Part shown: positions 1,889-61,467 of the stretch, in pieces | Layout: each line of letters begins with the position of its first letter | How positions within the stretch are numbered: position 1 is the first letter of the stretch | NCBI GenBank assembly: GCA_964457905.1 | Contig: CAYWGA010000002.1 | Coordinates: 3,475 to 67,474, forward strand | Direction of reading: 5' to 3' | DNA length: 64,000 nt | From: an uncultured bacterium | Lineage (GTDB): Bacteria; Krumholzibacteriota; Krumholzibacteriia; Krumholzibacteriales; Krumholzibacteriaceae | The notes under the pieces: model-generated | What the model was told of the DNA's origin: nothing | Seen by the model: only the letters and a program-made list of their open reading frames with translations | Database searches by the model: none | Position numbers and translations under genes: made by a program

Positions 1889-4513
1889 ATGAAGACAATA
1901 CTGATAATTCTGGCAGTCATCATACTTGCCACTCTCCCCACCTCAGCACAGATCCCGCGGCTGATAAACTACCAGGGCGTACTGACGGACGACATGGGCG
2001 TTGTTGTGGCGGACGACTCGTACAGCATGACATTCAGGCTCTACGACACACCTTCCGGAGGAACACAGCTCTGGGAGGAGACGATCGCTGTCAACGTCAG
2101 CAAGGGAATCTTCAACACGACCCTCGGGCATGATGTTGTCATTACGGAGTTCTTCGACAAACCCCTCTATCTCTCGATCGAGATCGATGGAGGCGGCGAG
2201 CTTTCTCCGAGGAGGATCTTTACTGCGAACGCATACGCGTTCAGCACACGGGCGGTCTATGGAGTCAGCAATGTATTCCCGGCGGAGGGAAATGTCGGGA
2301 TCGGGATCATTAACCCGGCCCCGGAAGCGCCGCTGCACCTGTACACGAACATATCTGACAGCAATCAGCCGTCCCTGCTTATCCAGAACGTCGGCGGTCA
2401 GAGCTCTATCGATTTCAGGATGGCGCTGGTGACCGAGGCAAGGATCAGGAAGTCCGGCGGAGGGGACCTCTTCATTGGAACACTGACCGGGCAGGGCATT
2501 ACGTTCCAGCTGGGCGGTTCATACCTGCACCGCATGCTCCCCGACGGCAGTTTCGGTATAGACAATATCGCTCCGCTGGAGAAACTCGATGTCGGCGGCG
2601 CCATCAGGCTCGGCACCACGGCGAACAGCAACGCCGGAACGCTCAGATGGACCGGGTCGGATTTCGAGGGATATGACGGATCGCTCTGGCAGTCGCTGAC
2701 AAGCGGCGGCGGGAGCAGCTTGCCTACGGGCGGTTCGACAAATACTCTTCGCCACAACGGAGCGGACTGGGTCGCGGCGACAAACCTGTCCAACGACGGA
2801 ACTAACATAGGTATAAACACTGCTTCACCGTCCGTCCCCCTTCATATCGTTCAGCCTTCAGGCCAGGTCGCGCTTCGTGTCGATGGATACAACGCATCCT
2901 ACGCGTCGATCTATGTAAACGCCGCCACGGCTCCCGCCGATCCTGTGTATGGATACCTTAGAGGAAGTACGATCTACGGCTACCACTACCTTGAATCGGA
3001 CTACAGCTGGAACCTCAATCTGAATAGTGGCCTGGCCCTGCATGTGGAGCCGAACGGGTGGACCTCGTTCGGTAACGTCGGGCTTTCCGAATCTCTGAAC
3101 ATCCCCGGAGCACTGAGGCTGGGAAACACGACAGGCAACACTGCCGGCTCGATCCGCTACACCGGCACCGATTTCGAGGGATACGTCGGCGGGATGTGGA
3201 ACTCCCTGACCGCCGGAAGCCTCCCTGCTGGAACTTCCGGCCAGACTCTCCGCTATAGCGGCGGATGGATCGCCGACGGCTCCCTGTACAACAACGGCAG
3301 CTACATCGGTCTCGGAACGACCTCGCCTGATGAGAACCTACATATCTACGAAGACGTCGACGCCTGGATGGGCATCACGATCGAGAACCCGAACACGGGC
3401 TCCGGTTCGGGAGAGCAAATCACATTCATCGACGAGAATGGAACACTCGCGGGAATCCGTCTTTACGACGACCTGTTCGCCGGCGCCTATGCCGGAGCGA
3501 TGGCGATATATAACAACAGGCCTTCCGGCTCCCTCCTGTTCAGGACAGGCGGAGTAAATCAGATGAGGATAACGGATTCGGGGGAGCTCGAGACCTATGG
3601 CACAACGGGTAACAGGTCATTGTACGGCTGGAACAACCCGGTCGGGGGCAACTTCGCAGTCTACAATGAAACAGGCTCCTACACAACGGTCAGCCTCGAG
3701 GGCGACGGCAGCGGTGAAGGCGGATTCATCTGGGTGAGGAGAGATAACACTAACGCCGGATTTACCGTCGACGGCAATCACAATGGAACCAGGGACACAA
3801 AAGTAGGGATCTACGGAGCTCTCAGATCGGCCGAGTTCAACATGAATGAATCGGGAGACGATTCGGTCGACCTGCCCTCAAGCTCGGTATCAGCGTCTGA
3901 GATACTCGACGAGCCAGGGATCGCAAGCGCGACGGAAGGCACGTCAGCCGTGCTCATTCTGGTGACTCCGACTACCATCAACTTTCGTTCGTTTGATGCT
4001 CCGGCGGCCGGATACGCCCTTGTCATCGCCTCAGGGCAGGGACAGATGATTCATACGAACGGAGCCACATCGTATATAAACTTCGGCGTATCCGACGATT
4101 CCGGGTCACTACCCGGCAACCAGGATATAGCGTGGCAGATCGACCAGGCGGGCGCGACGGGAACGTATTCGACACCGGTGACGGTCCATGGCCTGTTTGA
4201 GGTCACGGCCGGCGTGAACACCTTCTATTTCCTTGGTACTAAAGGAGCAGCGAACGGAAACTCGTACTGCTTCGATGTACAGTTCACCGTCATGTTCATC
4301 CCGACATCGTACGGCACCGTAGTTCCGACGCTGGCTGGAGGCATGGACATCCCCGACACTGAAGCGCCTCTCTCCAGCAGGTCCACTGCGGATGTCTCGA
4401 GCGAACGAGCGGCCTCCATAGAGGCGAACAACACCCGTATTGAAGCGGAGCTGTCCAGGATGCAGGCGCAGATCGAAAAGCTCCAGGCCGAGCTGGATAA
4501 TCCAAACCGGTAG
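1889..4513 (+). CDS. Large secreted tail-fibre-like repeat protein (874 aa) with C-terminal coiled coil
   Basis: Signal peptide MKTILIILAVIILATLPTSAQ. Recurring motifs NVGIGIINPAPEAPLHLY / NIGINTASPSVPLHIV / YIGLGTTSPDENLHIY and GTLRWTGSDFEGYDGSLWQSLT / GSIRYTGTDFEGYVGGMWNSLT. C-terminal heptad coiled coil RIEAELSRMQAQIEKLQAELD. Confidence 0.6.
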   Translation: MKTILIILAVIILATLPTSAQIPRLINYQGVLTDDMGVVVADDSYSMTFRLYDTPSGGTQLWEETIAVNVSKGIFNTTLGHDVVITEFFDKPLYLSIEIDGGGELSPRRIFTANAYAFSTRAVYGVSNVFPAEGNVGIGIINPAPEAPLHLYTNISDSNQPSLLIQNVGGQSSIDFRMALVTEARIRKSGGGDLFIGTLTGQGITFQLGGSYLHRMLPDGSFGIDNIAPLEKLDVGGAIRLGTTANSNAGTLRWTGSDFEGYDGSLWQSLTSGGGSSLPTGGSTNTLRHNGADWVAATNLSNDGTNIGINTASPSVPLHIVQPSGQVALRVDGYNASYASIYVNAATAPADPVYGYLRGSTIYGYHYLESDYSWNLNLNSGLALHVEPNGWTSFGNVGLSESLNIPGALRLGNTTGNTAGSIRYTGTDFEGYVGGMWNSLTAGSLPAGTSGQTLRYSGGWIADGSLYNNGSYIGLGTTSPDENLHIYEDVDAWMGITIENPNTGSGSGEQITFIDENGTLAGIRLYDDLFAGAYAGAMAIYNNRPSGSLLFRTGGVNQMRITDSGELETYGTTGNRSLYGWNNPVGGNFAVYNETGSYTTVSLEGDGSGEGGFIWVRRDNTNAGFTVDGNHNGTRDTKVGIYGALRSAEFNMNESGDDSVDLPSSSVSASEILDEPGIASATEGTSAVLILVTPTTINFRSFDAPAAGYALVIASGQGQMIHTNGATSYINFGVSDDSGSLPGNQDIAWQIDQAGATGTYSTPVTVHGLFEVTAGVNTFYFLGTKGAANGNSYCFDVQFTVMFIPTSYGTVVPTLAGGMDIPDTEAPLSSRSTADVSSERAASIEANNTRIEAELSRMQAQIEKLQAELDNPNR

Positions 4514-4547
4514 TCTGCTGGTGAATGAATCCTGGTTTCAATCGCAC

Positions 4548-4584
4548 AAAAAAAGGGCGGGCCGTATGGCCCGCCCTTCTGTCT
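4548..4584. terminator. Bidirectional rho-independent terminator (AAAAAAA-GGGCGGGCC-GTAT-GGCCCGCCC-TTCTGTCT)
   Basis: Perfect 9-bp GC stem with 4-nt loop. A-run on one side and T-rich run on the other. Sits between convergent genes (1889..4513 + and gdhA 4606..5946 -). Confidence 0.6.
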
Positions 4585-4605
4585 GCATAGTACAGAGGAT
4601 CGTTG

Positions 4606-5973
<1,368 letters not shown>

Positions 5974-6758: not shown

Positions 6759-7346
6759 TCAGGAACCCTCCGCGATCTCTTCCATGGTCCGTCCCGACGA
6801 GACCGATGTGTCGAAACTGCCGACGGGGTCGGCAGGGATACCTAACAGCTCGTCTTTTTTCTTTAAAAGGAGCCACCTCGCCTTCTCGCCCTTCCCGGTC
6901 CTGATAAGGGCCCAGGCGCCGCGGAGCCGCTCTCCATCGAGAAGGACCTCGACCTTTCCCTCCTCGAGCGATCTCTCCATATCGGCCCCGTCCCCCTCCT
7001 TCTCCGCCCTGACGTTCCCGTAGGTGCCTCTGTCCCAGATCATTACGGTGCCGCCGCCATACTCTCCCTCAGGGATCGTCCCCTCGAATCCGGCGTAGTC
7101 GTAAGGATGGTCCTCGGTCGGGACGGCAAGCCGCCTGTCGGCAGATACAGTCGACGGGCCCTTTGGAACGGCCCACGACTTGAGCACCCCTCCGACCTCG
7201 ATCCTGAAATCAAAGTGCAGCGTGCTTGCCGCATGTTTCTGGATAACGAAGATCGGACGGCCGCCCGGGCTCTCTCCCCCGCCAGGTTCGTGCGTCAGAT
7301 CGAAATCTCTCTTTTCCCTGTACCTGTCCAGTGGTTCTTCACTCAT
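6759..7346 (-). CDS. DNA ligase D 3'-phosphoesterase (PE) domain protein, stand-alone
   Basis: KRDFDLTHEPGG...PIFVIQKHAASTLHFDFRIEVGGVLKSWAVPKGPS matches LigD N-terminal PE domain signature. Confidence 0.7.
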   Translation of the reverse strand: MSEEPLDRYREKRDFDLTHEPGGGESPGGRPIFVIQKHAASTLHFDFRIEVGGVLKSWAVPKGPSTVSADRRLAVPTEDHPYDYAGFEGTIPEGEYGGGTVMIWDRGTYGNVRAEKEGDGADMERSLEEGKVEVLLDGERLRGAWALIRTGKGEKARWLLLKKKDELLGIPADPVGSFDTSVSSGRTMEEIAEGS

Positions 7347-7403
7347 GCTGCCTCCCTTCGGGAAACATTATAAGATATCTTGAGGACTTTTAACTATTTT
7401 TCG

Positions 7404-7432
7404 TTGACTCACTATAAGCACCCCCTATATAT
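7404..7432 (+). promoter_or_regulatory. Sigma-70-type promoter (TTGACT-N17-ATATAT) upstream of riboswitch/nrdD
   Basis: TTGACT at 7404-7409, 17-nt spacer, A/T hexamer 7427-7432. Lies immediately 5' of the riboswitch aptamer. Confidence 0.4.
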
Positions 7433-7444
7433 TGTGCCTTGCCG

Positions 7445-7625
7445 CCGGTAACCACTCCATATATAGGAGTGCTTACAGGAACCCGGTGAGACTCCGGGAC
7501 TGCCCCGCAGCGGTGAGCAGGAACGAAAGCCGCACGATGGCACTGGCCCCCGCCAGGGAGCCGGGAAGCCGCGGCCGGTAGGCAGGTACCGATACCAGCC
7601 TGCGAGTCCGAAGACCTGCCGGTGG
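7445..7625 (+). promoter_or_regulatory. Cobalamin (B12) riboswitch in the 5' leader of nrdD
   Basis: Contains GGAACCCGGTGAGACTCCGGGACTGCCCCGCAGCGGTGA (the conserved AGGGAA-CGGTGnAAnTCCG-GC-G-CCCGC-AC-GTnA core), the B12-box-like GGCACTGGCC, GGGAAGCC, and the 3' AGTCCGAAGACCTGCC element. About 200 nt of expression platform precede the AAGGA RBS of nrdD. Confidence 0.75.
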
Positions 7626-7827
7626 CCCGCGAAGACAATCGCGGATATATGGGCCGAACCCTTCGAGGGAAGGACCGGCCTGACAGGCAGATTTTATGGC
7701 GCATATGCTTCTCGAATGACACGATGCCTCTCTGCCGCCAGGCGAACTTTTTCTCTCATATCGAAGGAAGCGAACGGGACCCGAGGGCATGGGGCCCCGG
7801 TAGCTTTCTGCGGACGAAAGGACATTC

Positions 7828-9972
7828 ATGCAGACCACCTCTACCAGGGGCAAGACGGATTCTGTCCGCGGCAGCTCGACGGTATCGTTTACTTCGATCC
7901 GTAAAAGAGACGGACGCATCGCCGACTTCGACGCCGACAAGATCACCAGGGCGATCCTCAAGGCGGGACGTGCCTCGGGAGAGTTCACCGAGGATATGGC
8001 GCGCAAGCTGACGATCCGTGTACTCGGCCTCACGCAGGTGATGGCGCAGAGCGAGGTCCCGACGGTCGAGGAGATCCAGGACATTGTCGAGGATGTGCTC
8101 CTTACATCCCCCTTCAAGAGGACGGCAAAGGCCTACATCCTCTACCGCGACCAGCACTCACGGATCAGAGAGATGATAAAGCAGGCCGACGTCGACCTGA
8201 TCGACAACTACCTCGAGAAGCTCGACTGGAAGGTCAAAGAGAACAGCAACATGGCCTACTCCCTTCAGGGCCTCAACAACTACATATCGAGCGAGGTCAG
8301 CAAGACATACTGGCTCAACAAGATCTACACGGCGGAGGTCCGGGAGGCGCATTCGTCCGGCGCGCTCCACATACACGACCTCGGCCTCCTCTCAGTCTAC
8401 TGCGTCGGGTGGGACCTTCACGACCTTCTCCGAAGCGGTTTCCGCGGAGCAGCGGGCAAAGCTGAAAGCTCGCCGGCGAAACACTTCAGCACCGCTCTCG
8501 GACAGATCGTCAATTTCTTCTACACGCTGCAGGGCGAGGCTGCCGGCGCGCAGGCATTCTCTAACTTCGACACCCTGCTGGCGCCGTTCATCAGATATGA
8601 CAAGCTTACATACAAGCAGGTAAAGCAGGCGCTGCAGGCATTCGTCTTCAACGTGAACGTCCCGACGAGGGTCGGCTTCCAGACCCCCTTTACAAATCTC
8701 ACCCTCGACCTCCAGCCTCCATCCGCTCTGGCGAAGGAGCCTGCCATCATCGGCGGCAAGCCTATGAAGGAAACGTACAGTGAATTCGGCAAGGAAATGG
8801 TGACGCTCAACCGCGCATTCCTCGAGGTACTCTCGGAGGGAGACGCCCGCGGCCGGGTCTTCACCTTCCCCATCCCGACCTACAACATATCGTCCGATTT
8901 CGACTGGGACGCTCCGGGCCTCGAGCGGCTCTGGGAAGTAACCGGCAAATACGGGATCCCCTACTTCGCCAACTTCGTGAACTCCGACCTCTCCCCCGAC
9001 GACGCACGGTCGATGTGCTGCAGGCTGCGGCTCGACATCAGGGCGCTCGAGAAGAGAGGCGGCGGCCTTTTCGGCGCCAACCCACTGACCGGTTCGATCG
9101 GCGTGGTGACGATCAACATGCCACGGATCGGGCATCTTTCCGAGACAGAGGAGGAATTCTTCGGCCGCCTCGGCCACCTGATGGAGATCGCTCGTACCAG
9201 TCTCGAGACAAAACGCAAGGTCCTCGAGGGATTCACAGAAAAGAACCTCTATCCCTACACGAAGTACTATCTGCGCAACATGCGCGAGAGGCACGACTGC
9301 TACTGGTTCAATCATTTCTCGACGATCGGACTGGTCGGCCTCAACGAGGCATGCCTCAACTTCCACGGTGTTACTATCGGCGACCCGAAGGGCGCCGAGT
9401 TCGCATGCAGGACCCTCGACTTCATGAGGGAAAAGCTGAGCGTGTTCCAGGAGGAAACGGGTAACTTCTACAACCTCGAGGCGACTCCAGCCGAGGGCAC
9501 CGCCTACCGTCTTGCGAGGATAGACCGCGAGAAGTTCCCCACCATCATGTGCGCCAACGACAAAGGTCCGGATAAAAACATCGAGCCGTTTTACACCAAC
9601 TCGAGCCAGCTTCCCGTCGATTTCACCGACGACATCTTCGAGCTGCTCGACCTGCAGGATGAGATCCAGTCGAAGTACACGGGCGGAACAGTCCTTCACG
9701 TCTTCCTCGGCGAATCCGTGGCTGACCCTGACGCGATAAAGAATTTCGTGCGCAAGGTGTGCAATGACTACAGGCTCCCCTACTTCACTATTTCCCCGAC
9801 CTTCTCAGTGTGCCCCGAACACGGATACATCCGGGGAGAGGTGGCCCGATGCCCCGACTGCGCGAGAGAGACTGAGATATATTCGCGCGTCGTCGGCTAC
9901 CTCAGGCCGGTCGACCAGTGGAACGAGGGGAAACAGGCCGAGTTCGAGATGAGGAAGAGGTATTCGATCTGA
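7828..9972 (+). CDS. nrdD: Anaerobic ribonucleoside-triphosphate reductase (class III RNR)
   Basis: N-terminal ATP-cone. C-terminal Zn-ribbon CPEHGY...CPDC and glycyl-radical motif SRVVGYLRP. Length 714 aa. Confidence 0.9.
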   Translation: MQTTSTRGKTDSVRGSSTVSFTSIRKRDGRIADFDADKITRAILKAGRASGEFTEDMARKLTIRVLGLTQVMAQSEVPTVEEIQDIVEDVLLTSPFKRTAKAYILYRDQHSRIREMIKQADVDLIDNYLEKLDWKVKENSNMAYSLQGLNNYISSEVSKTYWLNKIYTAEVREAHSSGALHIHDLGLLSVYCVGWDLHDLLRSGFRGAAGKAESSPAKHFSTALGQIVNFFYTLQGEAAGAQAFSNFDTLLAPFIRYDKLTYKQVKQALQAFVFNVNVPTRVGFQTPFTNLTLDLQPPSALAKEPAIIGGKPMKETYSEFGKEMVTLNRAFLEVLSEGDARGRVFTFPIPTYNISSDFDWDAPGLERLWEVTGKYGIPYFANFVNSDLSPDDARSMCCRLRLDIRALEKRGGGLFGANPLTGSIGVVTINMPRIGHLSETEEEFFGRLGHLMEIARTSLETKRKVLEGFTEKNLYPYTKYYLRNMRERHDCYWFNHFSTIGLVGLNEACLNFHGVTIGDPKGAEFACRTLDFMREKLSVFQEETGNFYNLEATPAEGTAYRLARIDREKFPTIMCANDKGPDKNIEPFYTNSSQLPVDFTDDIFELLDLQDEIQSKYTGGTVLHVFLGESVADPDAIKNFVRKVCNDYRLPYFTISPTFSVCPEHGYIRGEVARCPDCARETEIYSRVVGYLRPVDQWNEGKQAEFEMRKRYSI

Positions 9973-10604
9973 TGAGGATCGGCGGATTCCAGAAATTCAG
10001 CCTCAGCGATTTTCCGGGTCACCCGGCGGCGATAGTCTTCACACAGGGATGCAACTTCCGCTGCCCATTCTGCCACAACGGCGACCTGATTCCGGAGACG
10101 CCTAACGACGGACTTCTCATCCCCGAGGATTTTGTGCTATCCTACCTCCGTTCCAGAGCGGGAAAGCTGGACGGCCTGGTCGTGACTGGTGGCGAACCGA
10201 CACTGCAGACGGACCTGGCCTCTTTTCTGAGCAAGGTCCGGAAGATCGGGTACAGGATCAAGGTCGACACAAACGGCAGCAGGCCGGATGTGCTCGAGCT
10301 TCTGATATCCGGGGGTCTCGTAGACTTCATATCGATGGACGTAAAGGCCCCTGCCCGGTCGTACGACAGGTTGACAGGCGTGAACGCCCCGATCGATGAG
10401 ATCACCCGGTCGATCGACCTGCTTTCCTGCTGCGGTATAGAGCACGAGTTCAGAACGACGCGCGTGTCCCCGCTCCTCTCCGATGACGAATTGGATGGAG
10501 TGGCCGGGATGATACCGGATGGTTCGACGTTCAGGCTGCAGACCTTCAATCCCTCTCGGGCTTTCGACAGGTCACTGAGGCCAACGGACGAGACGAGTCG
10601 CTGA
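9972..10604 (+). CDS. nrdG: Anaerobic RNR activating protein (radical SAM)
   Basis: CNFRCPFCHN radical-SAM CxxxCxxC cluster. Start ATG overlaps the nrdD stop (TGATG), indicating translational coupling. The longer track ORF from 9918 was trimmed to the NrdG-like N-terminus MRIGGFQKFSLSDFPG. Confidence 0.8.
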   Translation: MRIGGFQKFSLSDFPGHPAAIVFTQGCNFRCPFCHNGDLIPETPNDGLLIPEDFVLSYLRSRAGKLDGLVVTGGEPTLQTDLASFLSKVRKIGYRIKVDTNGSRPDVLELLISGGLVDFISMDVKAPARSYDRLTGVNAPIDEITRSIDLLSCCGIEHEFRTTRVSPLLSDDELDGVAGMIPDGSTFRLQTFNPSRAFDRSLRPTDETSR

Positions 10605-10642
10605 CAAGAGATACAAATCGGAAATTCAAACGGAGACTTGTA

Positions 10643-13177
10643 ATGACGATAAGCAGGAATGAGATGTTCAGAAAGTGGGGGATCTTCCACAAGTCATACG
10701 ACGCAGCGGGGATCCTCAATGATTTCGCCAACCACATCGAATATTCCCGGTCAAAGGACCAGTTCACAGCCACACTCAAGGACCTCTATTTCTCCCTGGC
10801 CCTGACAGCCCGCGACAGGCTCGTCGAACAATGGATCAAGACGCAGCAGGTATACCACCAGAAAAACGTCAAGCGGGTCTATTACCTCTCCGCTGAATAC
10901 CTTATGGGCAGGGCGCTGGTAAACAACCTGATCAATCTCGACATCTACGGGCCCACGTGCGAGGCGATGGACAAGATCGATCTGGACATAGAAAGGCTGA
11001 TCGACCAGGAGCCCGATGCCGGCCTCGGCAACGGGGGCCTCGGACGGCTCGCCGCCTGCTTCCTCGATTCGCTGGCAACCCTGATGATTCCGGCTGTCGG
11101 ATACGGCATCCGCTACGAATACGGCATCTTCGAGCAGGAGATCAGGGACAACGCCCAACACGAGTGTCCCGACGAGTGGCTCAAGTACGGCAACCCGTGG
11201 GAGATCGAGCGGCCCGAGTATTCATTCGTAGTCAAGTTTTTCGGAAGGGTCGACGAGGAATGGGGGCCGGGCGGAAAAACGCTCAGGGAGTGGACCGACA
11301 CACAGGACATCATCGGAGTCGCGTACGATACACCTATCACCGGGTACGGAAATATCACCGTCAACACTCTGAGACTCTGGGCGGCGACCGCGACAACAGA
11401 GTTCAATCTCGACTATTTCCAGAACGGCGACTACCTCAAGGCTGTGGAGGAGAAAAACCTGTCGGAGAATATTTCGAAGGTCCTCTATCCAAACGACAGC
11501 ACGTTCGAAGGCCGGGAGCTGAGACTGATGCAGCAGTACTTCTTCGTCTCATGCTCGATCCAGGACATCATCAGAAGGTACCTGATCGATCACAAGAACT
11601 TCGACGAATTTCCCGACAAGGCGGCCATTCAGCTCAACGACACTCATCCCTCTCTCGCGATCGCCGAGCTGATGAGGCTGCTGATAGACGAACACAGGGT
11701 GAGCTGGGACAAGGCCTGGGACATCACGACAAAATCGTGCGCCTACACGAACCACACCCTGCTGCCAGAGGCACTCGAGGAATGGCCGGTGTCGATGTTC
11801 GAAAAGCTGCTCCCCCGCCACCTCCAGATCATACGCAGGATAGACGTGATGTTCCGCAAACGGGTCTCCCTGCGATACCCGGGCGACACCGCCAGGCTCG
11901 GGCGTGTATCGATAGTCACGGGCGACCCGAACGCCAAGGTGAGGATGGCCCATCTCGCAGTAGTGGGCACCCACTCGACTAATGGCGTCGCCGAACTGCA
12001 CACTAAGCTCCTGAAGAAATTCCTCCTCAAGGATTTCAATGAGATCTTTCCGGGCAGGATCAACAACAAGACTAACGGGATCACACCGAGACGATGGCTG
12101 CTGGCGGCAAACCCCGGACTCGCCTCACTGATAACAGAGAAGATCGGCAGCGGCTGGGTAACCGCCCTCGAACAACTGCGAAACATCGAGGAATACGCCG
12201 GCGACGAGGAATTCATGGAGAGATACGCCGCCGTCAAGAGCGCCAACAAGGAAAAGCTGACAAAACTCACCGGCAGTCTGACCGATTACACGATCGACCC
12301 CTCATCGATCTTCGACGTACAGATCAAACGTTTCCATGAGTACAAGAGACAGCTCCTCAACATCCTCCATGTCATGTACTCGTGGCTCAGGCTCAAGGAG
12401 GATCCCGCGTACACTCCATGCTCACGGACCTATATCTTTGCCGGAAAGGCCGCGCCGGACTATCTCATCTCAAAACTTGTGATCAGCCTCGTAAACCATG
12501 TCGCCGCGATGATAAACGACGACAGGGAAACGGGCGACCTGTTGAAAGTGATCTTTCTGCCGAACTACCGCGTGACGCTGGCAGAGGCGATCATTCCCGC
12601 GGCCGATGTTTCCGAGCAGATCTCGACAGCGGGGTACGAAGCGTCGGGAACGGGCAACATGAAGCTTGCTCTCAACGGGGCCCTGACCGTCGGTACTCTC
12701 GACGGAGCCAACATAGAGATCATGGAGGAAGTCGGAGAAGAAAATATCTTTATCTTCGGGATGAACGCCCAGGAGGCAAGAATAGCCGCGGCGGATTATG
12801 ATGCCCGGAAGTACCTCGCAAAAGATCCGATCCTGAAGAAAACACTGGAGCTTCTGCGAAACGGATTCTTCTCTCCGAAGCAGAAGGATCTCTTCCGCCC
12901 GCTGGTCGACGCAATAACGGGGGTCGACCGGTTCCTCGTCCTCGCCGATTTCGACTCGTACCGGCTGGCGCAGGAGCAGGTGTGCAGGGAGCACTCGGAC
13001 CCTGAGATGTGGAACAGGAAATCTCTTATCAATGTGGCACGATCAGGAAGGTTCTCCTCTGACAGGACGATCCTCGAGTACAACAAGGAGATCTGGGAGG
13101 CTGAACGCCTGATCATCCCCGCCGAGAAGATGGTGGCGACTTCGGCCGATCCGGCCTTCATCGACCGGGAGGACTGA
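10643..13177 (+). CDS. glgP: Glycogen/alpha-glucan phosphorylase
   Basis: 844 aa. PLP-lysine motif EASGTGNMKLALNGALTVGTLDGANIE. N-terminal LYFSLA...YYLSAEYLMGRAL typical of GT35. Confidence 0.9.
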   Translation: MTISRNEMFRKWGIFHKSYDAAGILNDFANHIEYSRSKDQFTATLKDLYFSLALTARDRLVEQWIKTQQVYHQKNVKRVYYLSAEYLMGRALVNNLINLDIYGPTCEAMDKIDLDIERLIDQEPDAGLGNGGLGRLAACFLDSLATLMIPAVGYGIRYEYGIFEQEIRDNAQHECPDEWLKYGNPWEIERPEYSFVVKFFGRVDEEWGPGGKTLREWTDTQDIIGVAYDTPITGYGNITVNTLRLWAATATTEFNLDYFQNGDYLKAVEEKNLSENISKVLYPNDSTFEGRELRLMQQYFFVSCSIQDIIRRYLIDHKNFDEFPDKAAIQLNDTHPSLAIAELMRLLIDEHRVSWDKAWDITTKSCAYTNHTLLPEALEEWPVSMFEKLLPRHLQIIRRIDVMFRKRVSLRYPGDTARLGRVSIVTGDPNAKVRMAHLAVVGTHSTNGVAELHTKLLKKFLLKDFNEIFPGRINNKTNGITPRRWLLAANPGLASLITEKIGSGWVTALEQLRNIEEYAGDEEFMERYAAVKSANKEKLTKLTGSLTDYTIDPSSIFDVQIKRFHEYKRQLLNILHVMYSWLRLKEDPAYTPCSRTYIFAGKAAPDYLISKLVISLVNHVAAMINDDRETGDLLKVIFLPNYRVTLAEAIIPAADVSEQISTAGYEASGTGNMKLALNGALTVGTLDGANIEIMEEVGEENIFIFGMNAQEARIAAADYDARKYLAKDPILKKTLELLRNGFFSPKQKDLFRPLVDAITGVDRFLVLADFDSYRLAQEQVCREHSDPEMWNRKSLINVARSGRFSSDRTILEYNKEIWEAERLIIPAEKMVATSADPAFIDRED

Positions 13178-21494: not shown

Positions 21495-22343
21495 ATGACC
21501 GAGTGCTTTTTTGTCTCAGATCTTCACGGCAAGACCAACCGGTACGAAAAGTTGTTCGGTGCGATCAGCAGGGAAAAGCCGGCGGCGGTATTCATCGGCG
21601 GAGATATACTTCCCTCAATCGGATCTACTGCGCCCTTTCACGATTTTCTGTCCGATTTTCTTTACGCAGGCCTGGACCGTCTTCGCTCTTCATTGGGCGA
21701 TAGCTACCCCGCGATCTTCATCATACCGGGCAATGACGACTACCACTCCATAGTGGAAGAGATTGATGCCCTCGCCGATACGGGTCTCCTGTTCAGTATG
21801 CATGGCAGGGTGGAACCTTTCGGCTTATGGAAGATATTCGGATATTCATTTACTCCACCCAGTCCATTCATGCTGAAGGACTGGGAGAAGTACGACGTCT
21901 CCCGCTTCACCGACCCGGGCTGTGTCTCTCCCGAGGAAGGCCGCTATACATTCGAAATCCCGGACTCGGAGAAACGCTACGCGACGATCGCCGCCGATCT
22001 CGAGTCACTTGCCGGCTCTGAGGATCTGGAGAGTGCCGTTTTCCTTTTCCATGCCCCTCCATACAAGACAAATCTGGACCGAGCCGATCTCGACGGCAGG
22101 TATGTCGACAGCATCCCGATGGATGTCAACGTAGGAAGCATAGCGATACGCAGGTTCATCGAGGAGCGTCAGCCCCTCTTGACGCTTCATGGGCATATAC
22201 ATGAATCGGCAAGATTAACGGGAGAATGGAAAGACACAATAGGCGAAACGGTGATGTTCTCGGGAGCCCATGACGGACCGGAACTCGCGCTGGTCAGGTT
22301 CAGGCTGGAAAATCCGGGGAAGGCAGAAAGAGAACTCCTCTAG
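21495..22343 (+). CDS. Calcineurin-like metallophosphoesterase
   Basis: FFVSDLHGK...AVFIGGDILP...IIPGNDD...LTLHGHIHE matches phosphoesterase motifs I-V. Start trimmed to the first ATG after the glnS stop. Confidence 0.6.
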   Translation: MTECFFVSDLHGKTNRYEKLFGAISREKPAAVFIGGDILPSIGSTAPFHDFLSDFLYAGLDRLRSSLGDSYPAIFIIPGNDDYHSIVEEIDALADTGLLFSMHGRVEPFGLWKIFGYSFTPPSPFMLKDWEKYDVSRFTDPGCVSPEEGRYTFEIPDSEKRYATIAADLESLAGSEDLESAVFLFHAPPYKTNLDRADLDGRYVDSIPMDVNVGSIAIRRFIEERQPLLTLHGHIHESARLTGEWKDTIGETVMFSGAHDGPELALVRFRLENPGKAERELL

Positions 22344-25300
22344 CCTTCGCCCGGATCTTTCAGCTTCAAGGGACGGGCGGGGTCCGTCACTGCGCCTATT
22401 TTTACCGCATAACTTGTCTTGTTCTCAATATCCTCATCTGTCACAACGTGTACATCGAGCAGCCCCCCGGAGCGATATCCGGTCCGGTTATAGTTGATCT
22501 CGTCGAGACACAGGCTCCACGCTTCAAGCCAGGTCATCAGATCATTACGCTGATCCTGTGTTCCGCGGAAGTGGACGAGAAGGTCGATATCGCTGGCTAG
22601 CCCGGCAGTTGCGTTCTTCGTGCTTCCAAAGACGTAGAAACCAACTACTCCGAAACGTTCGGGATCGAGTCGGGAGGCGATGTGCTCAGCCATCCTCAGG
22701 CGCCACATCCAGAGATGGTCGGTCGGTTTTTTTGCCTCTGCCTCCATCTCGGTGATCTCTTCCCTGTCCTCTGTCGGATCGGCAAGGATACCAAGTGCCT
22801 CACCCAGATCGGCGTTCATCAGTACCCTCAGGACCCTGCCCTTTGTCGCTTTGGGCACATCGATCAGTTTTATCGTATCGGCCAGCCCGGCATACTCGGG
22901 AAGCACGTCGGGAAGAAGATTTTTCGAGATTGAAAAGAACCTGTCGTTGAAAACGGTTCCCTCATCATCGGGATACAGCGGAAGGTATCTTATCTGTCCT
23001 TCCACGAGATCCTGGAAAAAATGTGTCCCAAACGAAAGATCCGGCTTATAGCCACCTTTGCTGCGTGCGATCTCCATCAGGACCGCTGTATTGTTGATGT
23101 CGGAATATGTCACGCTCACACCGAGTCGTATATCGCCCCTGCTCCCCCATCTGCCCGGTCCCATGAGTACGAACTGGCGCTTGGGCAGGATCTTGTTCAG
23201 CCGGCTGACTGCCCGTCCTACCTCCAGAAGTTCCTCACGGGAGGATATTTCGCCGTATTTCACCGGGTCCACGTATACCACGTGCGTGATATCCGGCACG
23301 CGCCCGTTGGATACATACCTGTCCGCTGAAAATACGATATCCTTCTCGGAGACATCCTTGGGGATGGGAGACGGCGCGATATCTTCCGAATAGCTCTGGG
23401 GCCTGCACTGGAGAAGATAGAAATCGTTGCCGTCATGAGCGAATTCGATGTCGACGGGATTACCGATAGTCTCTTCCAGGGTCTCAAGGATCGCCCGTAC
23501 TTTCCTTACGAATGGCGTATCGCTCAGGAGCCCCTCACACGTCATCAACAGGTCGTCCTTTTCGAAATCGATGCTCATCGGCATCGGCTTGTGCATATGA
23601 CCACCCTTATTGACCAGTACCATCTTTTCAATATTCGGATAGTCGTCGCCATGTGTCCTGAGCAGTTCGCTGATCTCGACCGTTTCGAATGTATTGCTCC
23701 GGAGGTTGATCACATCGATCATCTTCGGGGAATAATGCGCGATCTCTTCGGGAGCCACGTTGACGCGAAGACCGGGTTGTCCCGGCGCCACCAGGATGGG
23801 ATAATCGTCGCTTACCCTGTCGACTGCCCGCGTGCCAAGGCCCGGGACGAGCCTTATCAATCCGTCCTCCCTCTTTATCCTGGGAGACCACCTGAATTCG
23901 TTTCTGCTGAACGCCACCCCGGCGAATGCCGGCAGGAAGTAATCACCCATCCTCGTCCCGATGACCTCCTGGATGAGAATTCCCATCTCCTCGGCAAAAT
24001 CGAGGAGCCCCCTCTCAGCCCTGTATTCGATCGGATCCGGCCCGAAGGAGGAGGCATAGACCTCGGCGATGGCATCCATGAGGGCCTCGAGACACTCCCG
24101 CTTGGATCCCTGGTTGGCAAGAAACAGGCTTTTGTATTTACCGGAAAAAGACGCACCGAGGCTGTCCTCAAGCAGGCTCGAGCTACGGATGATAAGCGGC
24201 TTCCCCTCGCATTCATCGAGGACCATGGACAGCCCCTGAACGACCTCAGGAGGGAACCGTCCATTTTTGAACGATCTTATGACATTCGGATATTCGACTC
24301 TGACCTGATTGATGCTCTTGTACTTTTGCTCCACGACTTCATCCATGTTGTTATACTTCAGGAATCCAAGCAGGATGTCGGAAGTCATGTACCAGCTGTT
24401 GGGGACCTTGATGCTTGAAAGCTCCTCGTCTTCCGCGAAACTTTTTCTGATTATCTGTTTCGCCATGACCAGGCCGGCGCATTTACCCCCGAGCCGTCCA
24501 TGGCTTCCAGTCATATAGATCGTCTTGTCGAGAAACTCGAAGAAATCCGCGATCTCAAAATAATTCTTGGCGATGTTTATATAGTCGAGCTGCGAAGAGA
24601 GGAATCTTCTGACCAGAGATACTATGACTCCGAGCTTGGCGCTCGGAGAGAGATCTATGTTCTCGGAGACCGCATCCCTGTACTGCCTCAACGCTGCAAT
24701 CACATCGGGAAGAGTAAGGTTCCTGTTAGCGATATGTATCAGGTATTTCAGCCTGTCATCCTGGATCCATTTCTGCAGGTATGCATATATCTGGTCACCG
24801 GTGAACTGACTTGTAGCAATCCGGAATATCTCGAAACTCATATCTTCCGTCAGCCTGAGATTACCACTTCTCATCGGCCGGTTCTCGTCCTCCTGGCCCC
24901 TCGCTCCATTCTCATAATAATCCGGCACTATCTTCTGCTGCAGTTTTTCAGCGGCTGAGACACCTTCCCAGCACAGATGATTGAGCATCCTCTCGGTCAC
25001 ATTGTAATAAAGGTCCTTGTCTGTGAACCGCAGAAGGTTCAGGATGACTTTCCAGTCTTCCTTGCCGGAACTGTCCGCCGGCTCGCCCGATAATCCGGCC
25101 TTCACCTTCATATCATCCTGCTGGAGAAGACTGCCGATCCTATCGGCGATGGTCGAAAGCAGCTTTTTCTCCTGCCTCAGAAAGGGACCATCGTCCGCTT
25201 CCGGCATCTCTCGGCTGTAGAAGACAGACAGCTTCCCGGCCTGTCTCTTGCCGACAATGATATCCGCGCTCTGCATCCATGAGGTTTCGGTGAATCCATA

Positions 25301-25519
25301 TTCGCTGTAACTGTCAGGTCCCAGTTCGATTCTCACGCGGCAGTATTTTGGATACTGCCATCCGGACGGAATCGCTGAGACAATCTTCATGCACGTATCC
25401 CCGATATTCCCCTCATGATCCCTTACGATCTCCTCGATGCGGTACAGGCACTCAAGTTCCTTCTCTCTTTCAACAAAGAAACGCATGAGATCATCCGGAT
25501 TATCTTTTTGGTCATGCAT
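22340..25519 (-). CDS. Multidomain protein: N-terminal unknown region, PEP/pyruvate-binding (PPDK_N, ATP-grasp-like) domain, C-terminal Pol-beta-type nucleotidyltransferase
   Basis: RLGGKCAGLVMAKQII and IIRSSSLLEDSLGASFSGKYKSLF are PPDK_N hallmarks. C-terminus FYVFGSTKNATAGLASDIDLLVHF is the G[SG]x9-13Dh[DE]h minimal NTase motif. Its 5' end overlaps the upstream paralog by 8 nt. Confidence 0.6.
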   Translation of the reverse strand: MHDQKDNPDDLMRFFVEREKELECLYRIEEIVRDHEGNIGDTCMKIVSAIPSGWQYPKYCRVRIELGPDSYSEYGFTETSWMQSADIIVGKRQAGKLSVFYSREMPEADDGPFLRQEKKLLSTIADRIGSLLQQDDMKVKAGLSGEPADSSGKEDWKVILNLLRFTDKDLYYNVTERMLNHLCWEGVSAAEKLQQKIVPDYYENGARGQEDENRPMRSGNLRLTEDMSFEIFRIATSQFTGDQIYAYLQKWIQDDRLKYLIHIANRNLTLPDVIAALRQYRDAVSENIDLSPSAKLGVIVSLVRRFLSSQLDYINIAKNYFEIADFFEFLDKTIYMTGSHGRLGGKCAGLVMAKQIIRKSFAEDEELSSIKVPNSWYMTSDILLGFLKYNNMDEVVEQKYKSINQVRVEYPNVIRSFKNGRFPPEVVQGLSMVLDECEGKPLIIRSSSLLEDSLGASFSGKYKSLFLANQGSKRECLEALMDAIAEVYASSFGPDPIEYRAERGLLDFAEEMGILIQEVIGTRMGDYFLPAFAGVAFSRNEFRWSPRIKREDGLIRLVPGLGTRAVDRVSDDYPILVAPGQPGLRVNVAPEEIAHYSPKMIDVINLRSNTFETVEISELLRTHGDDYPNIEKMVLVNKGGHMHKPMPMSIDFEKDDLLMTCEGLLSDTPFVRKVRAILETLEETIGNPVDIEFAHDGNDFYLLQCRPQSYSEDIAPSPIPKDVSEKDIVFSADRYVSNGRVPDITHVVYVDPVKYGEISSREELLEVGRAVSRLNKILPKRQFVLMGPGRWGSRGDIRLGVSVTYSDINNTAVLMEIARSKGGYKPDLSFGTHFFQDLVEGQIRYLPLYPDDEGTVFNDRFFSISKNLLPDVLPEYAGLADTIKLIDVPKATKGRVLRVLMNADLGEALGILADPTEDREEITEMEAEAKKPTDHLWMWRLRMAEHIASRLDPERFGVVGFYVFGSTKNATAGLASDIDLLVHFRGTQDQRNDLMTWLEAWSLCLDEINYNRTGYRSGGLLDVHVVTDEDIENKTSYAVKIGAVTDPARPLKLKDPGEG

Positions 25520-27269
25520 GGAGGATCACCCCCCGGCCGCTCTTTCCGTCGACCTTTACAGTCAGCGGACTGTCGAGTCTGATATGCCGGACATGTTTTG
25601 TCTCGAAACAGGATTCTTTGGTTTTCAGCCATTTCCAGTCTATCGAACGATCGTCGTCATGTCGCATGGAAAAATAGAAGACCTTGAAGCTGGTCAGGTT
25701 GTGGAAGAAATGCGAACCCTGGCTCATCATGTACCCGAAGTTGGAAAGAGAGATCTCCACTATAACCTTCGCTCCGGATATCTGGCCGAAATCGACTGGG
25801 ATCCCGCCCATCTGGTCCGTCGTCCCCCAGCGTCCGAAGCCTACCAGAATGTATTTCCTGCCCTCTCCGACCAGCCTTTCGTTTATCGTCTCTATTTCAG
25901 AAGCGATCTCCCGGGACCTCATTATGTCGAATGTGTCGGGATCGATATATACCAGGTCGGAGATCGAATCATCGGCCCCGTTTCCCAGAACCGTGGTAGA
26001 AGAGATCAGCACTCCCGGATCGTCAAGCTCCTCCTCCGCAACGGTCACTTCAGACTTCGAAACGACCATCGGACGGGCCTGAAGAAATCCGAAATCGGCA
26101 GGTTCACCGAGCGTGCTTCCAAGTCTCATCGCGAACTCGATCTCCACCTTCGCTCCGAGCCGTTCCTCGCATTCCCTCATGACTGTCTTGAGGAGCTCGC
26201 TGAAATGGAAATCCCTGCCTCGAAGGATCGGCGAGAAATCAATGACCCTCGGCCCGTCACGAAAGATTCCGCTCTCGAGACGGTCATCCCTGTGATTATA
26301 TGTCGAGGCGATCAGGCCAAGGGACCCGTCATACTCGCAGTCCTTCAAATCGAATCGATCAAGGTACTCCATCTCTTCAACAGGACTGTATGTATGCAGC
26401 TTCCCCATATTCACTGCCCAGAACCCGGTCTGAGTATGCTTGAGCATATCACCGGTCGACTTGAACGGAGGACCGACAGCGGGCCATTCGGGCGAAAAGG
26501 CCCATGAGATCCCGTCATCGACAATCGTCCTCCCGAGACCGAGTGCCAGCTCGACTACCCCCTCCTCCGGTTCTGCCCTGCCGAAAGGATAAAAATTGAA
26601 CGATCTCATCACGCCTGATACGTGAGGGTAATACCTGTCCCCGAATCTCGTGCCGATGATATCCTGAATTATCACAGCCATCTTTTCATCCTCGATCGAA
26701 TGGCTCACGACCTTCATGTAGTCCCCTGCAGACTTGAAGAATGTAGAGGCATAGATGAATTTTACCGCCTCGGCCAGCTTCTGAAATCTGGAATCCGTAT
26801 CGGGAAGATTGTTGGGGACCATCTTTGTCGCGTAGACACTGGCGAAAGGCTCGAACATGGCATCCTCCAGCAGGCTCGAGGACCTTACCGCCAGAGGTGT
26901 GTGGACCTGCTGCGCGATAGCTCTCAGATCGCCGGCAAGCCCGACAGGAAGGGAAGCTCGCAGAAAAGCGTGGGCCTTGATCTCATCGCGCCTGTCGGAG
27001 AGCGCGATATCGTAGAGGTCGTTCTCCCGCATGAAGAGATCGAAAAACTCCGTTGTAATAACGGTCAGCCTTGGAATAGCGACCGATATAGCCGGTTCGA
27101 ACAGAGGCTTTACCTTATTTCCCAGCGCTTCACCCATCTTCGCCAATCCGTGAGCCTTGCCACCCAACTCACCGGAACCGATGAAAGTAAACCGCTCTTT
27201 CCCGGTAAAGAACTCCCGTTCGAACCGGCTGACAGTAAATTCATCCCTTATGCCGGATTCTTCAGACAA
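25512..27269 (-). CDS. PEP/pyruvate-binding (PPDK_N) domain protein, paralog of 22340..25519 without NTase
   Basis: ELGGKAHGLAKMGEAL and VRSSSLLEDAMFEPFASVYATKMVPN motifs. Shares the post-PPDK_N module (ILVGFGRWGTTD vs VLMGPGRWGSRGD) with the neighbour. Apparent TTG start 6 nt after the gdh stop. Confidence 0.55.
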   Translation of the reverse strand: MSEESGIRDEFTVSRFEREFFTGKERFTFIGSGELGGKAHGLAKMGEALGNKVKPLFEPAISVAIPRLTVITTEFFDLFMRENDLYDIALSDRRDEIKAHAFLRASLPVGLAGDLRAIAQQVHTPLAVRSSSLLEDAMFEPFASVYATKMVPNNLPDTDSRFQKLAEAVKFIYASTFFKSAGDYMKVVSHSIEDEKMAVIIQDIIGTRFGDRYYPHVSGVMRSFNFYPFGRAEPEEGVVELALGLGRTIVDDGISWAFSPEWPAVGPPFKSTGDMLKHTQTGFWAVNMGKLHTYSPVEEMEYLDRFDLKDCEYDGSLGLIASTYNHRDDRLESGIFRDGPRVIDFSPILRGRDFHFSELLKTVMRECEERLGAKVEIEFAMRLGSTLGEPADFGFLQARPMVVSKSEVTVAEEELDDPGVLISSTTVLGNGADDSISDLVYIDPDTFDIMRSREIASEIETINERLVGEGRKYILVGFGRWGTTDQMGGIPVDFGQISGAKVIVEISLSNFGYMMSQGSHFFHNLTSFKVFYFSMRHDDDRSIDWKWLKTKESCFETKHVRHIRLDSPLTVKVDGKSGRGVILHA

Positions 27270-61376: not shown

Positions 61377-61467
61377 AACAGAAAGATTAACTCTTGTCGT
61401 GGATCAGTTTAGTGGGGAAAGGTCAAAAATGCGTTAACCAAAAAGTCGTCAGTTCCGACCAATTATA

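What the first reader, a model, noticed from the sequence alone, without database searches (positions are those of the whole stretch)
7404..10604. Cobalamin riboswitch controlling the B12-independent class III RNR operon nrdDG
A canonical cobalamin aptamer (GGTGAGACTCCGG...CCCGCAGCGGTGA, GGCACTGG, AGTCCGAAGACCTGCC) lies in the 390-nt leader of nrdD, behind a TTGACT-N17-ATATAT promoter. nrdG is translationally coupled to nrdD (TGATG). B12 riboswitches on B12-independent isozymes imply that a B12-dependent class II RNR (NrdJ) exists elsewhere in the genome. NrdDG would then be repressed when cobalamin is available. This reads out a physiological trait (B12 uptake or use) from sequence alone.
Basis: partly seen in the sequence, partly recalled or inferred. 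Interest (0 to 1): 0.55.

Follow-up and report, generated by a model that had tools for sequence, protein, structure and literature searches.

The report
B12 riboswitch on anaerobic RNR operon
A genuine vitamin-B12-sensing RNA switch sits in front of the B12-independent anaerobic ribonucleotide reductase genes nrdD and nrdG of an uncultivated Krumholzibacteriota bacterium; this arrangement has been known since 2003-2004, and the one less ordinary point is that a binding site for the NrdR repressor overlaps the promoter and the switch.

Summary
Rfam RF00174 (Cobalamin) matches window 7429-7637 (+) at 95.5 bits (threshold 31.5, full model). It is the only Rfam hit in the 64 kb. Downstream lie nrdD (7828-9972) and nrdG (9972-10604, TGATG overlap). 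The organism is a Krumholzibacteriota bacterium.

B12 elements on nrdDG were described for Desulfovibrio and Desulfuromonas (PMC545781), Chlorobium (PMC8620254) and P. acnes (PMC3848588). The riboswitch precedes nrdD in 24 of 80 related genome loci from several phyla. This is a new member of a known kind.

Box 1 (7422-7437) covers the -10. Box 2 (7454-7469) is the aptamer's P2 hairpin. The pair occurs once in the window (0.01 expected). The same register is seen in four lineages.

Relatives that lost the aptamer by internal deletion keep the boxes.

The expression platform most likely attenuates transcription. It is a conserved long hairpin (7660-7767) carrying the leader's only U-tract. A copy of the P1 5' strand could act as anti-terminator. 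This mechanism is inferred, not shown.

The predicted NrdJ could not be tested. The window holds no nrdJ, nrdR, btuB or cob genes.

The parts
7404..7409 (+). -35-like hexamer TTGACT
   Evidence: Consensus scan. TTGAC is conserved in all Krumholzibacteriota relatives.
7428..7433 (+). -10-like hexamer TATATT. The implied transcription start is about 7440-7441, the first base of P1.
   Evidence: The start site itself is inferred, not mapped.
7422..7437 (.). NrdR box 1, CCCCTATATATTGTGC, covering the -10
   Evidence: All six conserved positions (C4, A6, A8, T9, T11, G13; definition from PMC13584703) match.
7454..7469 (.). NrdR box 2, ACTCCATATATAGGAG, 16 bp after box 1. It is the same DNA that encodes the P2 hairpin of the aptamer (CACUCC-AUAUAUA-GGAGUG, 7453-7471).
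   Evidence: 6 of 6 positions match. P2 is assigned from the Rfam alignment. The box is kept in relatives that have lost the aptamer.
7429..7637 (+). Cobalamin riboswitch aptamer (RF00174). P1 is 7441-7448 with 7619-7626; the B12 box is 7605-7620; the P6 extension is present.
   Evidence: 95.5 bits; covariation.
7627..7644 (+). Hairpin directly after P1: CCGCGA / UCGCGG with loop AGACAA
   Evidence: It is 92.9% paired in 7 relatives. No loop complementarity to L5 was found.
7652..7680 (+). Alternative hairpin 'alt-b': GGCCG/CGGCC plus CCUUC/GAAGG. It cannot form together with the long hairpin.
   Evidence: -15.3 kcal/mol. One compensatory pair is seen, in L164.
7660..7767 (+). Long hairpin ('rod'), proposed as an atypical terminator. 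Its four helices are 7660-7666/7761-7767, 7667-7674/7748-7755, 7678-7682/7739-7743 and 7686-7691/7731-7736.
   Evidence: Folds at -38.6 kcal/mol, z -2.5. The helices are 98-100% paired in 7 relatives, with 2 compensatory pairs in 7678-7682/7739-7743.
7734..7742 (+). GCCGCCAGG, a near-copy of the P1 5' strand (GCCGCCGG). It can pair with the P1 3' strand as a proposed anti-terminator.
   Evidence: The duplex is -17.8 kcal/mol, against -19.4 for P1. One compensatory pair supports it; 2 cells in the CCUG/CAGG extension are broken.
7748..7757 (+). U-tract UUUUUCUCUC, 4 nt after the inner stem. It is the only U-run shared at the same position by all aptamer-bearing relatives; the window also has a UUUU at 7692-7695 that the relatives lack.
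   Evidence: It is present in every relative with an intact aptamer. It is degenerate or deleted in relatives without one.
7766..7808 (+). Helix 'e': GGAAGC...GCUUUC enclosing CGGG/CCCG and CCC/GGG
   Evidence: Two compensatory pairs separate the short and long leader forms.
7816..7822 (+). Shine-Dalgarno GAAAGGA, 5 nt before the ATG
   Evidence: Sequence. Predicted to be largely unpaired with the aptamer formed or not.
7828..9972 (+). nrdD, class III (anaerobic, glycyl-radical) ribonucleoside-triphosphate reductase with an N-terminal ATP-cone
9972..10604 (+). nrdG, radical-SAM activase. Its ATG overlaps the nrdD stop (TGATG).

Best explanation
This is the regulatory region of the nrdDG operon of a Krumholzibacteriota bacterium, and it takes two inputs.

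(1) At the DNA level, a pair of NrdR boxes covers the -10 (box 1) and positions about +14 to +29 (box 2). NrdR is the repressor that responds to dATP and ATP. It would block transcription initiation when deoxynucleotides are plentiful.

(2) At the RNA level, the transcript starts directly with P1 of a classical, P6-extended cobalamin aptamer. The cell would then rely on a B12-dependent reductase, presumed to be NrdJ.

The most likely read-out is premature transcription termination. With P1 locked, the segment GCCGCCAGG (7734-7742) is free. It then closes the conserved long hairpin 7678-7743 just ahead of the U-tract 7748-7757. Without ligand, the P1 3' strand can pair with that segment instead, hairpin 7652-7680 forms, and RNA polymerase reads through into nrdD.

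Shown: the aptamer, the genes, the NrdR-box pair, and the conservation and covariation of the helices. Inferred: the ligand, the off-switch logic, termination as the read-out, and the existence of NrdJ and NrdR in this genome. My sub-probabilities are: real cobalamin riboswitch 0.97; off-switch 0.85; NrdR operator functional 0.8; termination rather than translational control about 0.5.
For: The aptamer scores 95.5 bits over the full model, and 14 of 23 pairs are compensatory across phyla. The genes are identified.

The same aptamer sits upstream of nrdD in 24 of 80 genome loci and 19 of 80 metagenome loci.

Published precedent and logic: PMC545781, PMC8620254, PMC3848588.

NrdR operator: the strict box pair occurs once in 64 kb, against 0.01 expected. 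All 16 strict pairs in 628 kb of loci lie upstream of nrdD. The register of -7 from the aptamer model start is shared by Krumholzibacteriota, Actinomycetota L011, Kiritimatiellia L018 and Phycisphaerae L012. The background rate for 10 or more of 12 positions is 9e-5 per position. The boxes are kept where the aptamer is lost.

Platform: the rod helices are 98-100% paired, and structure 1 as a whole (rod, helix e and the post-P1 hairpin) has 4 compensatory pairs, 2 of them in the rod. The rod folds with z -2.5. P1 (-19.4) and the alternative pairing (-17.8 kcal/mol) are nearly equal in energy. The U-tract is conserved in every intact relative and gone in every decayed one. A 74-nt indel next to the Shine-Dalgarno is tolerated in the population, as expected if the decision is made upstream. 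Equilibrium folding shows no change in Shine-Dalgarno accessibility.
Against: The standard scan finds no canonical intrinsic terminator. The U-tract lies 4 nt from the stem. In the minimum-energy fold it pairs with a purine tract.

The covariation rests on 7 closely related sequences, and the structure was derived from those same sequences.

Two changes that are compensated in the rod break the CCUG/CAGG part of the proposed anti-terminator.

At equilibrium, P1 plus the hairpin is favoured even without ligand, so any switch must be kinetic.

No nrdJ, nrdR or B12 uptake or synthesis gene is in the window. No binding, transcription or expression data exist.
Confidence: 0.72

Rival explanations
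1. The aptamer and the off-switch logic are the same, but the read-out is translational. Ligand binding would lead to sequestration of the Shine-Dalgarno or the start codon. Candidates are CUUUC 7804-7808 pairing with GAAAG 7816-7820, or UCUGCG 7807-7812 pairing with UGCAGA 7829-7834. Transcription termination would not be involved.
For: In Chlorobi, the cobalamin-riboswitch genes are described as mainly translationally regulated (PMC8620254). The scan finds no canonical terminator. A small hairpin over the start codon appears in the minimum-energy fold. The B12 box and P1 3' region are complementary to 7793-7832 at -29 kcal/mol. That is the kind of anti-sequestor pairing classical models use.
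Against: Predicted Shine-Dalgarno accessibility is the same with the aptamer formed or not, in all six relatives. The candidate sequestering helices are only 4-6 bp. A 74-nt indel directly upstream of the Shine-Dalgarno separates two coexisting forms, so that region is poorly constrained. The strictly conserved segments are 7645-7692 and 7730-7757, far from the Shine-Dalgarno.
Confidence: 0.3
2. The riboswitch in this genome is a decaying relic. The window carries the short leader form, which lacks 74 nt, and sister lineages have plainly lost the switch. On this view nrdDG is controlled by NrdR only.
For: Eight related loci show aptamer loss by internal deletion: L003, L005, L063, L084, L162, L163, L165 and L166. 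The window lacks 74 nt that L002, L004, L006 and L164 have.
Against: The aptamer is intact over the full model at 95.5 bits. The short form is shared by four assemblies whose NrdD is 93-100% identical (L001, L082, L083 and the window). Its helix e carries compensatory changes relative to the long form. The deletion lies downstream of the rod and U-tract and removes none of the proposed switching elements.
Confidence: 0.05
3. The NrdR boxes are a coincidence: an AT-rich -10 next to a palindromic P2 hairpin. On this view only the riboswitch regulates the operon.
For: Any good NrdR box is a palindrome and will look like a hairpin. No nrdR gene is in the window.
Against: 12 of 12 conserved positions match at the correct 16-bp spacing, with 0.01 expected per window. 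The same pair occurs upstream of nrdD in loci that have no riboswitch at all, such as L020, L025-L030, L165 and L166.
Confidence: 0.07

Closest known systems
B12 elements upstream of nrdDG in Desulfovibrio vulgaris and Desulfuromonas (Rodionov et al. 2004, PMC545781, citing the 2003 comparative-genomics study)
   Same: A cobalamin riboswitch sits in the 5' leader of the B12-independent class III reductase operon. The proposed logic is the same: repress NrdDG when B12 allows NrdJ to work.
   Different: The phylum differs (Krumholzibacteriota). In those genomes NrdJ was shown to be present, whereas here it could not be checked. No NrdR overlap was described there.
Propionibacterium acnes nrdDG (PMC3848588)
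   Same: nrdDG carries both an annotated cobalamin riboswitch in its 5' UTR and a pair of NrdR boxes. The genome also has nrdRJ.
   Different: In P. acnes the boxes lie far downstream of the active promoter. [quoted passage not shown] Here box 1 covers the -10 of the promoter that makes the riboswitch, and box 2 is inside the aptamer (P2).
Streptomyces coelicolor nrdABS (Borovok et al. 2006 and Grinberg et al. 2006, as cited in PMC13584703 and PMC12528414; the primary papers were not held)
   Same: A B12-independent reductase operon under dual control by NrdR and a B12 riboswitch that acts on transcription. NrdJ is the B12-dependent alternative.
   Different: That operon encodes a class Ia reductase (nrdAB), not class III. 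How the boxes lie relative to the aptamer there could not be checked.
E. coli btuB and other RF00174 members
   Same: The aptamer architecture is the same: P1, B12 box, and P6 extension.
   Different: btuB is controlled at translation through an L5-L13 kissing loop. No such loop complementarity was found here.

Membership tests
Cobalamin riboswitch (Rfam RF00174) | Covariance-model score at or above the curated gathering score, over the whole model | tested here: met
   95.5 bits against 31.5, model positions 1-189 of 189, E 1.6e-22.
Cobalamin riboswitch (Rfam RF00174) | Conserved B12 box and core motifs | tested here: met
   AGUCCGAAGACCUGCC at 7605-7620, GGUGAGACUCCGG, and GCACUGG...CGGGAAGC. 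These columns are invariant or nearly so in 19 aptamers.
Cobalamin riboswitch (Rfam RF00174) | Helices supported by compensatory changes among homologues | tested here: met
   14 of 23 consensus pairs have changes on both sides, and 6 of the 9 P1 pairs do.
Cobalamin riboswitch (Rfam RF00174) | Located in the 5' leader, on the same strand, of a gene connected with B12 | tested here: met
   It lies 190 nt upstream of nrdD. The same position is found in 24 of 80 genome loci.
Cobalamin riboswitch (Rfam RF00174) | Binds a cobalamin and changes gene expression | not testable with these tools
   This needs binding and expression assays.
Class III ribonucleotide reductase NrdD / NrdG | Curated family score, C-terminal glycyl-radical motif, and a radical-SAM activase with CX3CX2C | tested here: met
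   NF006126 at 1060.8 against 548; TIGR02487 at 560.7 against 326; motif SRVVGY. For NrdG, TIGR02495 at 203.9 against 131 and CNFRCPFC.
NrdR operator | Two 16-bp boxes with C4, A6, A8, T9, T11 and G13, separated by 15-16 bp (PMC13584703) | tested here: met
   12 of 12 positions, linker 16 bp. It occurs once in the window against 0.01 expected.
NrdR operator | Lies in the promoter region of a ribonucleotide reductase operon | tested here: met
   Box 1 covers the predicted -10 of nrdDG.
NrdR operator | The genome encodes NrdR, and NrdR binds the site | not testable with these tools
   No nrdR is among the roughly 50 window ORFs. The rest of the genome was not available.
Intrinsic (Rho-independent) terminator as expression platform | A G+C-rich stem-loop followed immediately by a U-tract | tested here: inconclusive
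   The standard scan finds none. A conserved, irregular 66-nt hairpin (-21 kcal/mol) is followed after 4 nt by UUUUUCUCUC.
B12-dependent / B12-independent isozyme switch (NrdJ versus NrdDG) | The same genome encodes a B12-dependent class II reductase, plus B12 uptake or synthesis | not tested
   None are in the window. The only indirect hint is that 28 Krumholzibacteriota MAGs carry cobamide-dependent rdhA-like genes (PMC12219181).

The most novel reading that the evidence does not exclude
One 16-bp stretch (7454-7469) may be read twice: as DNA it is half of the NrdR operator, and as RNA it is the P2 helix of the cobalamin aptamer. The promoter, operator and riboswitch would then form a single fused module. 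The same register (-7 to +39/40 from the aptamer model start) occurs in Krumholzibacteriota, Actinomycetota, Kiritimatiellia and Phycisphaerae. Within Krumholzibacteriota the riboswitch half was lost several times by internal deletions that always removed or degraded the U-tract, while the NrdR half stayed. I found no description of this overlap in the searchable literature, but the primary Streptomyces papers were not available to check.
Probability: 0.5. Interest if true: 0.45.

Novelty: new member of a known kind. Interest (0 to 1): 0.27.

Why it matters
On its own, the finding adds one more lineage, an uncultivated phylum, to a regulatory pattern known for two decades. It gives a sequence-based hint that this organism has access to cobamides and probably owns a B12-dependent reductase.

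There is a small added value. The locus shows how a protein operator and a riboswitch can share sequence. The set of relatives also provides natural deletion mutants. These mark which parts of the leader (the aptamer and the U-tract) go together, and they predict which genomes should have lost NrdJ or B12 access.

Tried and rejected
(1) An L5-L13 kissing loop as in btuB. The hairpin after P1 (7627-7644) has variable loops (AGACAA, ACCA, UACA) that are not complementary to the invariant L5, and the best L5-platform duplex is uninformative. Rejected.

(2) Shine-Dalgarno sequestration by equilibrium folding. Accessibility does not differ between the aptamer-formed and free models in six relatives. 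Not supported, but kept as a rival.

(3) A canonical terminator scan of 7300-7900 found none.

(4) Homology of the platform outside the lineage. An nhmmer profile of the platform hits only close Krumholzibacteriota loci, so deep covariation is not available.

(5) A crude search for U-tracts and hairpins in the platforms of other phyla was uninformative, partly because the script's start-codon guesses were unreliable.

(6) A test for NrdJ, NrdR or B12 genes. Pfam and NCBIfam scans of about 50 window ORFs found none. A homology search with a foreign NrdJ would list only its own close relatives, so I did not run it.

(7) Literature on B12 use in Krumholzibacteriota gave only an indirect mention of rdhA-like genes.

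(8) The primary Streptomyces papers, PMC1636249 and PMC1428431, are not held.

(9) A possible third NrdR box at 7391-7406 matches 5 of 6 positions here but only 4 of 6 in L002 (by eye, from the alignment). I do not claim it.
Full report
**Observation**

A scan of the whole 64-kb window against Rfam gives exactly one hit above threshold. It is RF00174 (Cobalamin) at 7429-7637 on the + strand, at 95.5 bits against a gathering score of 31.5, E 1.6e-22, covering model positions 1-189 of 189.

The quoted motifs are in the sequence. P1 is GCCGCCGG 7441-7448 with CCGGUGGC 7619-7626, and the B12 box is AGUCCGAAGACCUGCC at 7605-7620. The P6 extension typical of the classical adenosylcobalamin class is matched.

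I aligned this aptamer with 18 others found upstream of nrdD in other phyla. In that alignment 14 of 23 consensus pairs keep pairing through changes on both sides.

**Genes**

ORF 7828-9972 (714 aa) has an ATP-cone and the NRDD domain. NCBIfam NF006126 scores 1060.8 against a cut-off of 548. The protein ends with the zinc-ribbon cysteines and the glycyl-radical motif SRVVGY.

nrdG begins at the ATG inside TGATG (9970-9974). It matches TIGR02495 at 203.9 bits against 131, and it has the CNFRCPFC radical-SAM cluster. The mechanical ORF list starts it at GTG 9918, but the family model starts at the residue encoded at 9972.

The next gene (10643-13177) is a glycogen phosphorylase, not nrdJ.

**Organism**

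The NrdD protein is 90-93% identical to proteins of Candidatus Krumholzibacteriota MAGs.

**Promoter**

TTGACT (7404-7409), 18 nt, TATATT (7428-7433) matches 10 of 12 consensus positions. This places the transcription start at about 7440-7441, the first base of P1. The leader is then about 388 nt. The start site is inferred, not mapped.

**How common and how well known**

RF00174 lies upstream of nrdD in 24 of the 80 most similar loci from species-representative genomes. These come from Krumholzibacteriota, Planctomycetota, Kiritimatiellia, Actinomycetota, Clostridia, Bacteroidales and Fibrobacteria. A profile of these aptamers also hits 19 of 80 metagenome loci.

The arrangement and its interpretation are published:
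- B12 elements precede nrdDG in D. vulgaris and Desulfuromonas, whose genomes also have NrdJ. The proposal there is that B12 represses the B12-independent isozyme (PMC545781).
- The same is reported for Chlorobium (PMC8620254).
- It is also reported for P. acnes (PMC3848588).
- C. difficile shows experimentally that NrdDG and NrdJ can substitute for each other under anaerobic conditions (bioRxiv 10.1101/772582).

The finding is therefore a new member of a known kind.

NrdR boxes are 16-bp partial palindromes with conserved C4, A6, A8, T9, T11 and G13. They come in pairs 15-16 bp apart (PMC13584703).

The window has CCCCTATATATTGTGC (7422-7437), then 16 bp, then ACTCCATATATAGGAG (7454-7469). 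That is 12 of 12 conserved positions. The pair is the only such site in 64 kb, with 0.01 expected from dinucleotide shuffles.

Box 1 covers the -10. Box 2 is the DNA that encodes the first hairpin after P1, which is P2 in the Rfam consensus (CACUCC-AUAUAUA-GGAGUG, 7453-7471).

In 628 kb of fetched loci, all 16 strict pairs lie upstream of nrdD.

The identical register, starting 7 nt before the aptamer model and ending at +39 or +40, is found in several lineages:
- every Krumholzibacteriota locus with an aptamer or an aptamer remnant;
- Actinomycetota L011 (12 of 12);
- Kiritimatiellia L018 (11 of 12);
- Phycisphaerae L012 (10 of 12).

The background rate for 10 or more of 12 positions is 9e-5 per position. 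Thermoleophilia loci use a different register, with both boxes upstream of the aptamer.

Box 2 is kept at the right spacing in relatives that have lost the aptamer (L165 and L166 at 12 of 12; L163 and L084 at 11; L162 and L005 at 10). It is therefore maintained as an operator and not only as an RNA helix.

Dual control of a reductase operon by NrdR and a B12 riboswitch is known for Streptomyces nrdABS and was predicted for P. acnes nrdDG. I did not find the overlap of a box with an aptamer helix described.

**Natural variants**

Within Krumholzibacteriota the leader exists in several states.
- Intact aptamer with a 264-nt platform: L002, L004, L006, L164.
- Intact aptamer with a 190-nt platform lacking 74 nt just upstream of the Shine-Dalgarno: the window, L001, L082, L083. 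These are four assemblies with 93-100% NrdD identity, so this is not an assembly artefact.
- Aptamer 3' half deleted, together with the 3' half of the platform hairpin and the U-tract: L003, where RF00174 scores only 38.9 bits.
- Everything from L5 to the Shine-Dalgarno deleted: L063.
- Aptamer gone, with platform remnants whose U-tract has degenerated: L162, L163.
- No aptamer at all: L005, L084, L165, L166.

All of these keep the promoter, both NrdR boxes, and usually the first bases of P1 (CCTTGCCGC).

**Expression platform**

The platform can only be aligned within this lineage, so the evidence is limited to seven sequences. Coordinates were verified by script.

A conserved long hairpin spans 7660-7767. 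It has four helices:
- CCUUCGA / UCGAAGG
- GGGAAGGA / UUUUUCUC
- GCCUG / CAGGC
- GGCAGA / UCUGCC

These helices are 98-100% paired in all seven sequences. GCCUG/CAGGC carries two independent compensatory changes: GUCUG/CAGAC in L083 and GCUUG/CAAGC in L164. The hairpin folds at -38.6 kcal/mol, z -2.5.

Its 3' side contains UUUUUCUCUC (7748-7757), 4 nt after the inner stem. That U-run sits at the same place in every aptamer-bearing relative (the window alone has a second UUUU at 7692-7695), and it is missing in every decayed one.

The 3' strand of the inner stem, GCCGCCAGG (7734-7742), is a near-copy of the P1 5' strand. It can pair with the P1 3' strand at -17.8 kcal/mol, against -19.4 for P1 itself. 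One compensatory change in L164 supports this pairing.

A second hairpin (7652-7680, -15.3 kcal/mol, one compensatory pair) cannot form together with the long hairpin.

This is the layout of a terminator and anti-terminator off-switch. Ligand-locked P1 would free 7734-7742 to close the hairpin ahead of the U-tract.

Three points speak for termination over translational control:
- Predicted Shine-Dalgarno accessibility is the same with or without the aptamer.
- The 74-nt indel next to the Shine-Dalgarno is tolerated.
- The strictly conserved segments are far from the Shine-Dalgarno.

Four points speak against it:
- No canonical terminator is detected.
- The U-tract is spaced from the stem, and it pairs with a purine tract in the minimum-energy fold.
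- The covariation is thin and comes from the sequences used to draw the structure.
- The CCUG/CAGG part of the anti-terminator is broken by the very changes that the hairpin compensates.

I put termination at about 0.5 and translational control at about 0.3.

**What could not be tested**

That needs the rest of the genome.

The window's roughly 50 ORFs include no nrdJ, nrdR, btuB/btuFCD or cob/cbi genes. The only indirect hint is that many Krumholzibacteriota MAGs carry cobamide-dependent rdhA-like genes (PMC12219181).

The decay series gives a sharp prediction. Intact switches should co-occur with nrdJ, and decayed ones should not.

**Verdict**

The feature is real and correctly identified. 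It is already understood in kind, so it is of low to moderate interest. The fused NrdR box and P2 hairpin, and the natural deletion series, are worth a short note but do not change the category.

Noticed in passing
window 7422-7469: A perfect pair of NrdR boxes (12 of 12 conserved positions, 16-bp linker). Box 1 is on the -10 and box 2 coincides with the aptamer's P2 hairpin. The same register occurs in four phylum-level lineages.
   Followed up: yes
L003, L005, L063, L084, L162, L163, L165, L166 (regions upstream of nrdD): Krumholzibacteriota relatives have lost the cobalamin aptamer through different internal deletions. They keep the promoter and NrdR boxes. The leader's U-tract is lost or degraded in each case.
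   Followed up: partly
window 7806-7815, compared with L002 1565-1640: There are two coexisting leader forms. The window, L001, L082 and L083 lack 74 nt that L002, L004, L006 and L164 carry between helix e and the Shine-Dalgarno. The flanks are similar (GAGCCAAGG and GACGAAAGG), which suggests deletion or duplication between short repeats.
   Followed up: partly
window 10605-13177: A glycogen phosphorylase gene follows nrdG after 38 nt, with no promoter-like or terminator-like site between them. The nrdD-nrdG-phosphorylase order is conserved in relatives. It may be co-transcribed and so also under B12 and NrdR control.
   Followed up: partly
window 7391-7406: A possible third NrdR-like box (TAACTATTTTTCGTTG, 5 of 6 positions) lies 15 bp upstream of box 1 and overlaps the -35. 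It is weaker in relatives (4 of 6 in L002, by eye).
   Followed up: no
window 60000-64000: G+C falls from about 0.55 to 0.41. A D-Ala-D-Ala-ligase-like ATP-grasp gene (62990-63976, minus strand) has a third-codon-position G+C of 0.19, against 0.6-0.8 elsewhere. It sits next to a D-Ala-D-Ala carboxypeptidase (61675-62574, minus strand). This may be acquired DNA.
   Followed up: no
L039 6130-6335: In a Bacteroidales genome, a second full cobalamin riboswitch (98.5 bits) lies about 1 kb downstream of the nrdD match (3001-5109), in addition to the one upstream of nrdD.
   Followed up: no
window 22340-27269 (minus strand): Two adjacent large genes (1059 and 585 aa) each carry a PPDK_N (pyruvate phosphate dikinase ATP-binding) domain. 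The first also has a nucleotidyltransferase domain. Their function is unclear.
   Followed up: no
window 4606-5946 and 27276-28562 (both minus strand): Two glutamate dehydrogenase paralogues lie in one 64-kb stretch. The first matches the NADP-specific family.
   Followed up: no
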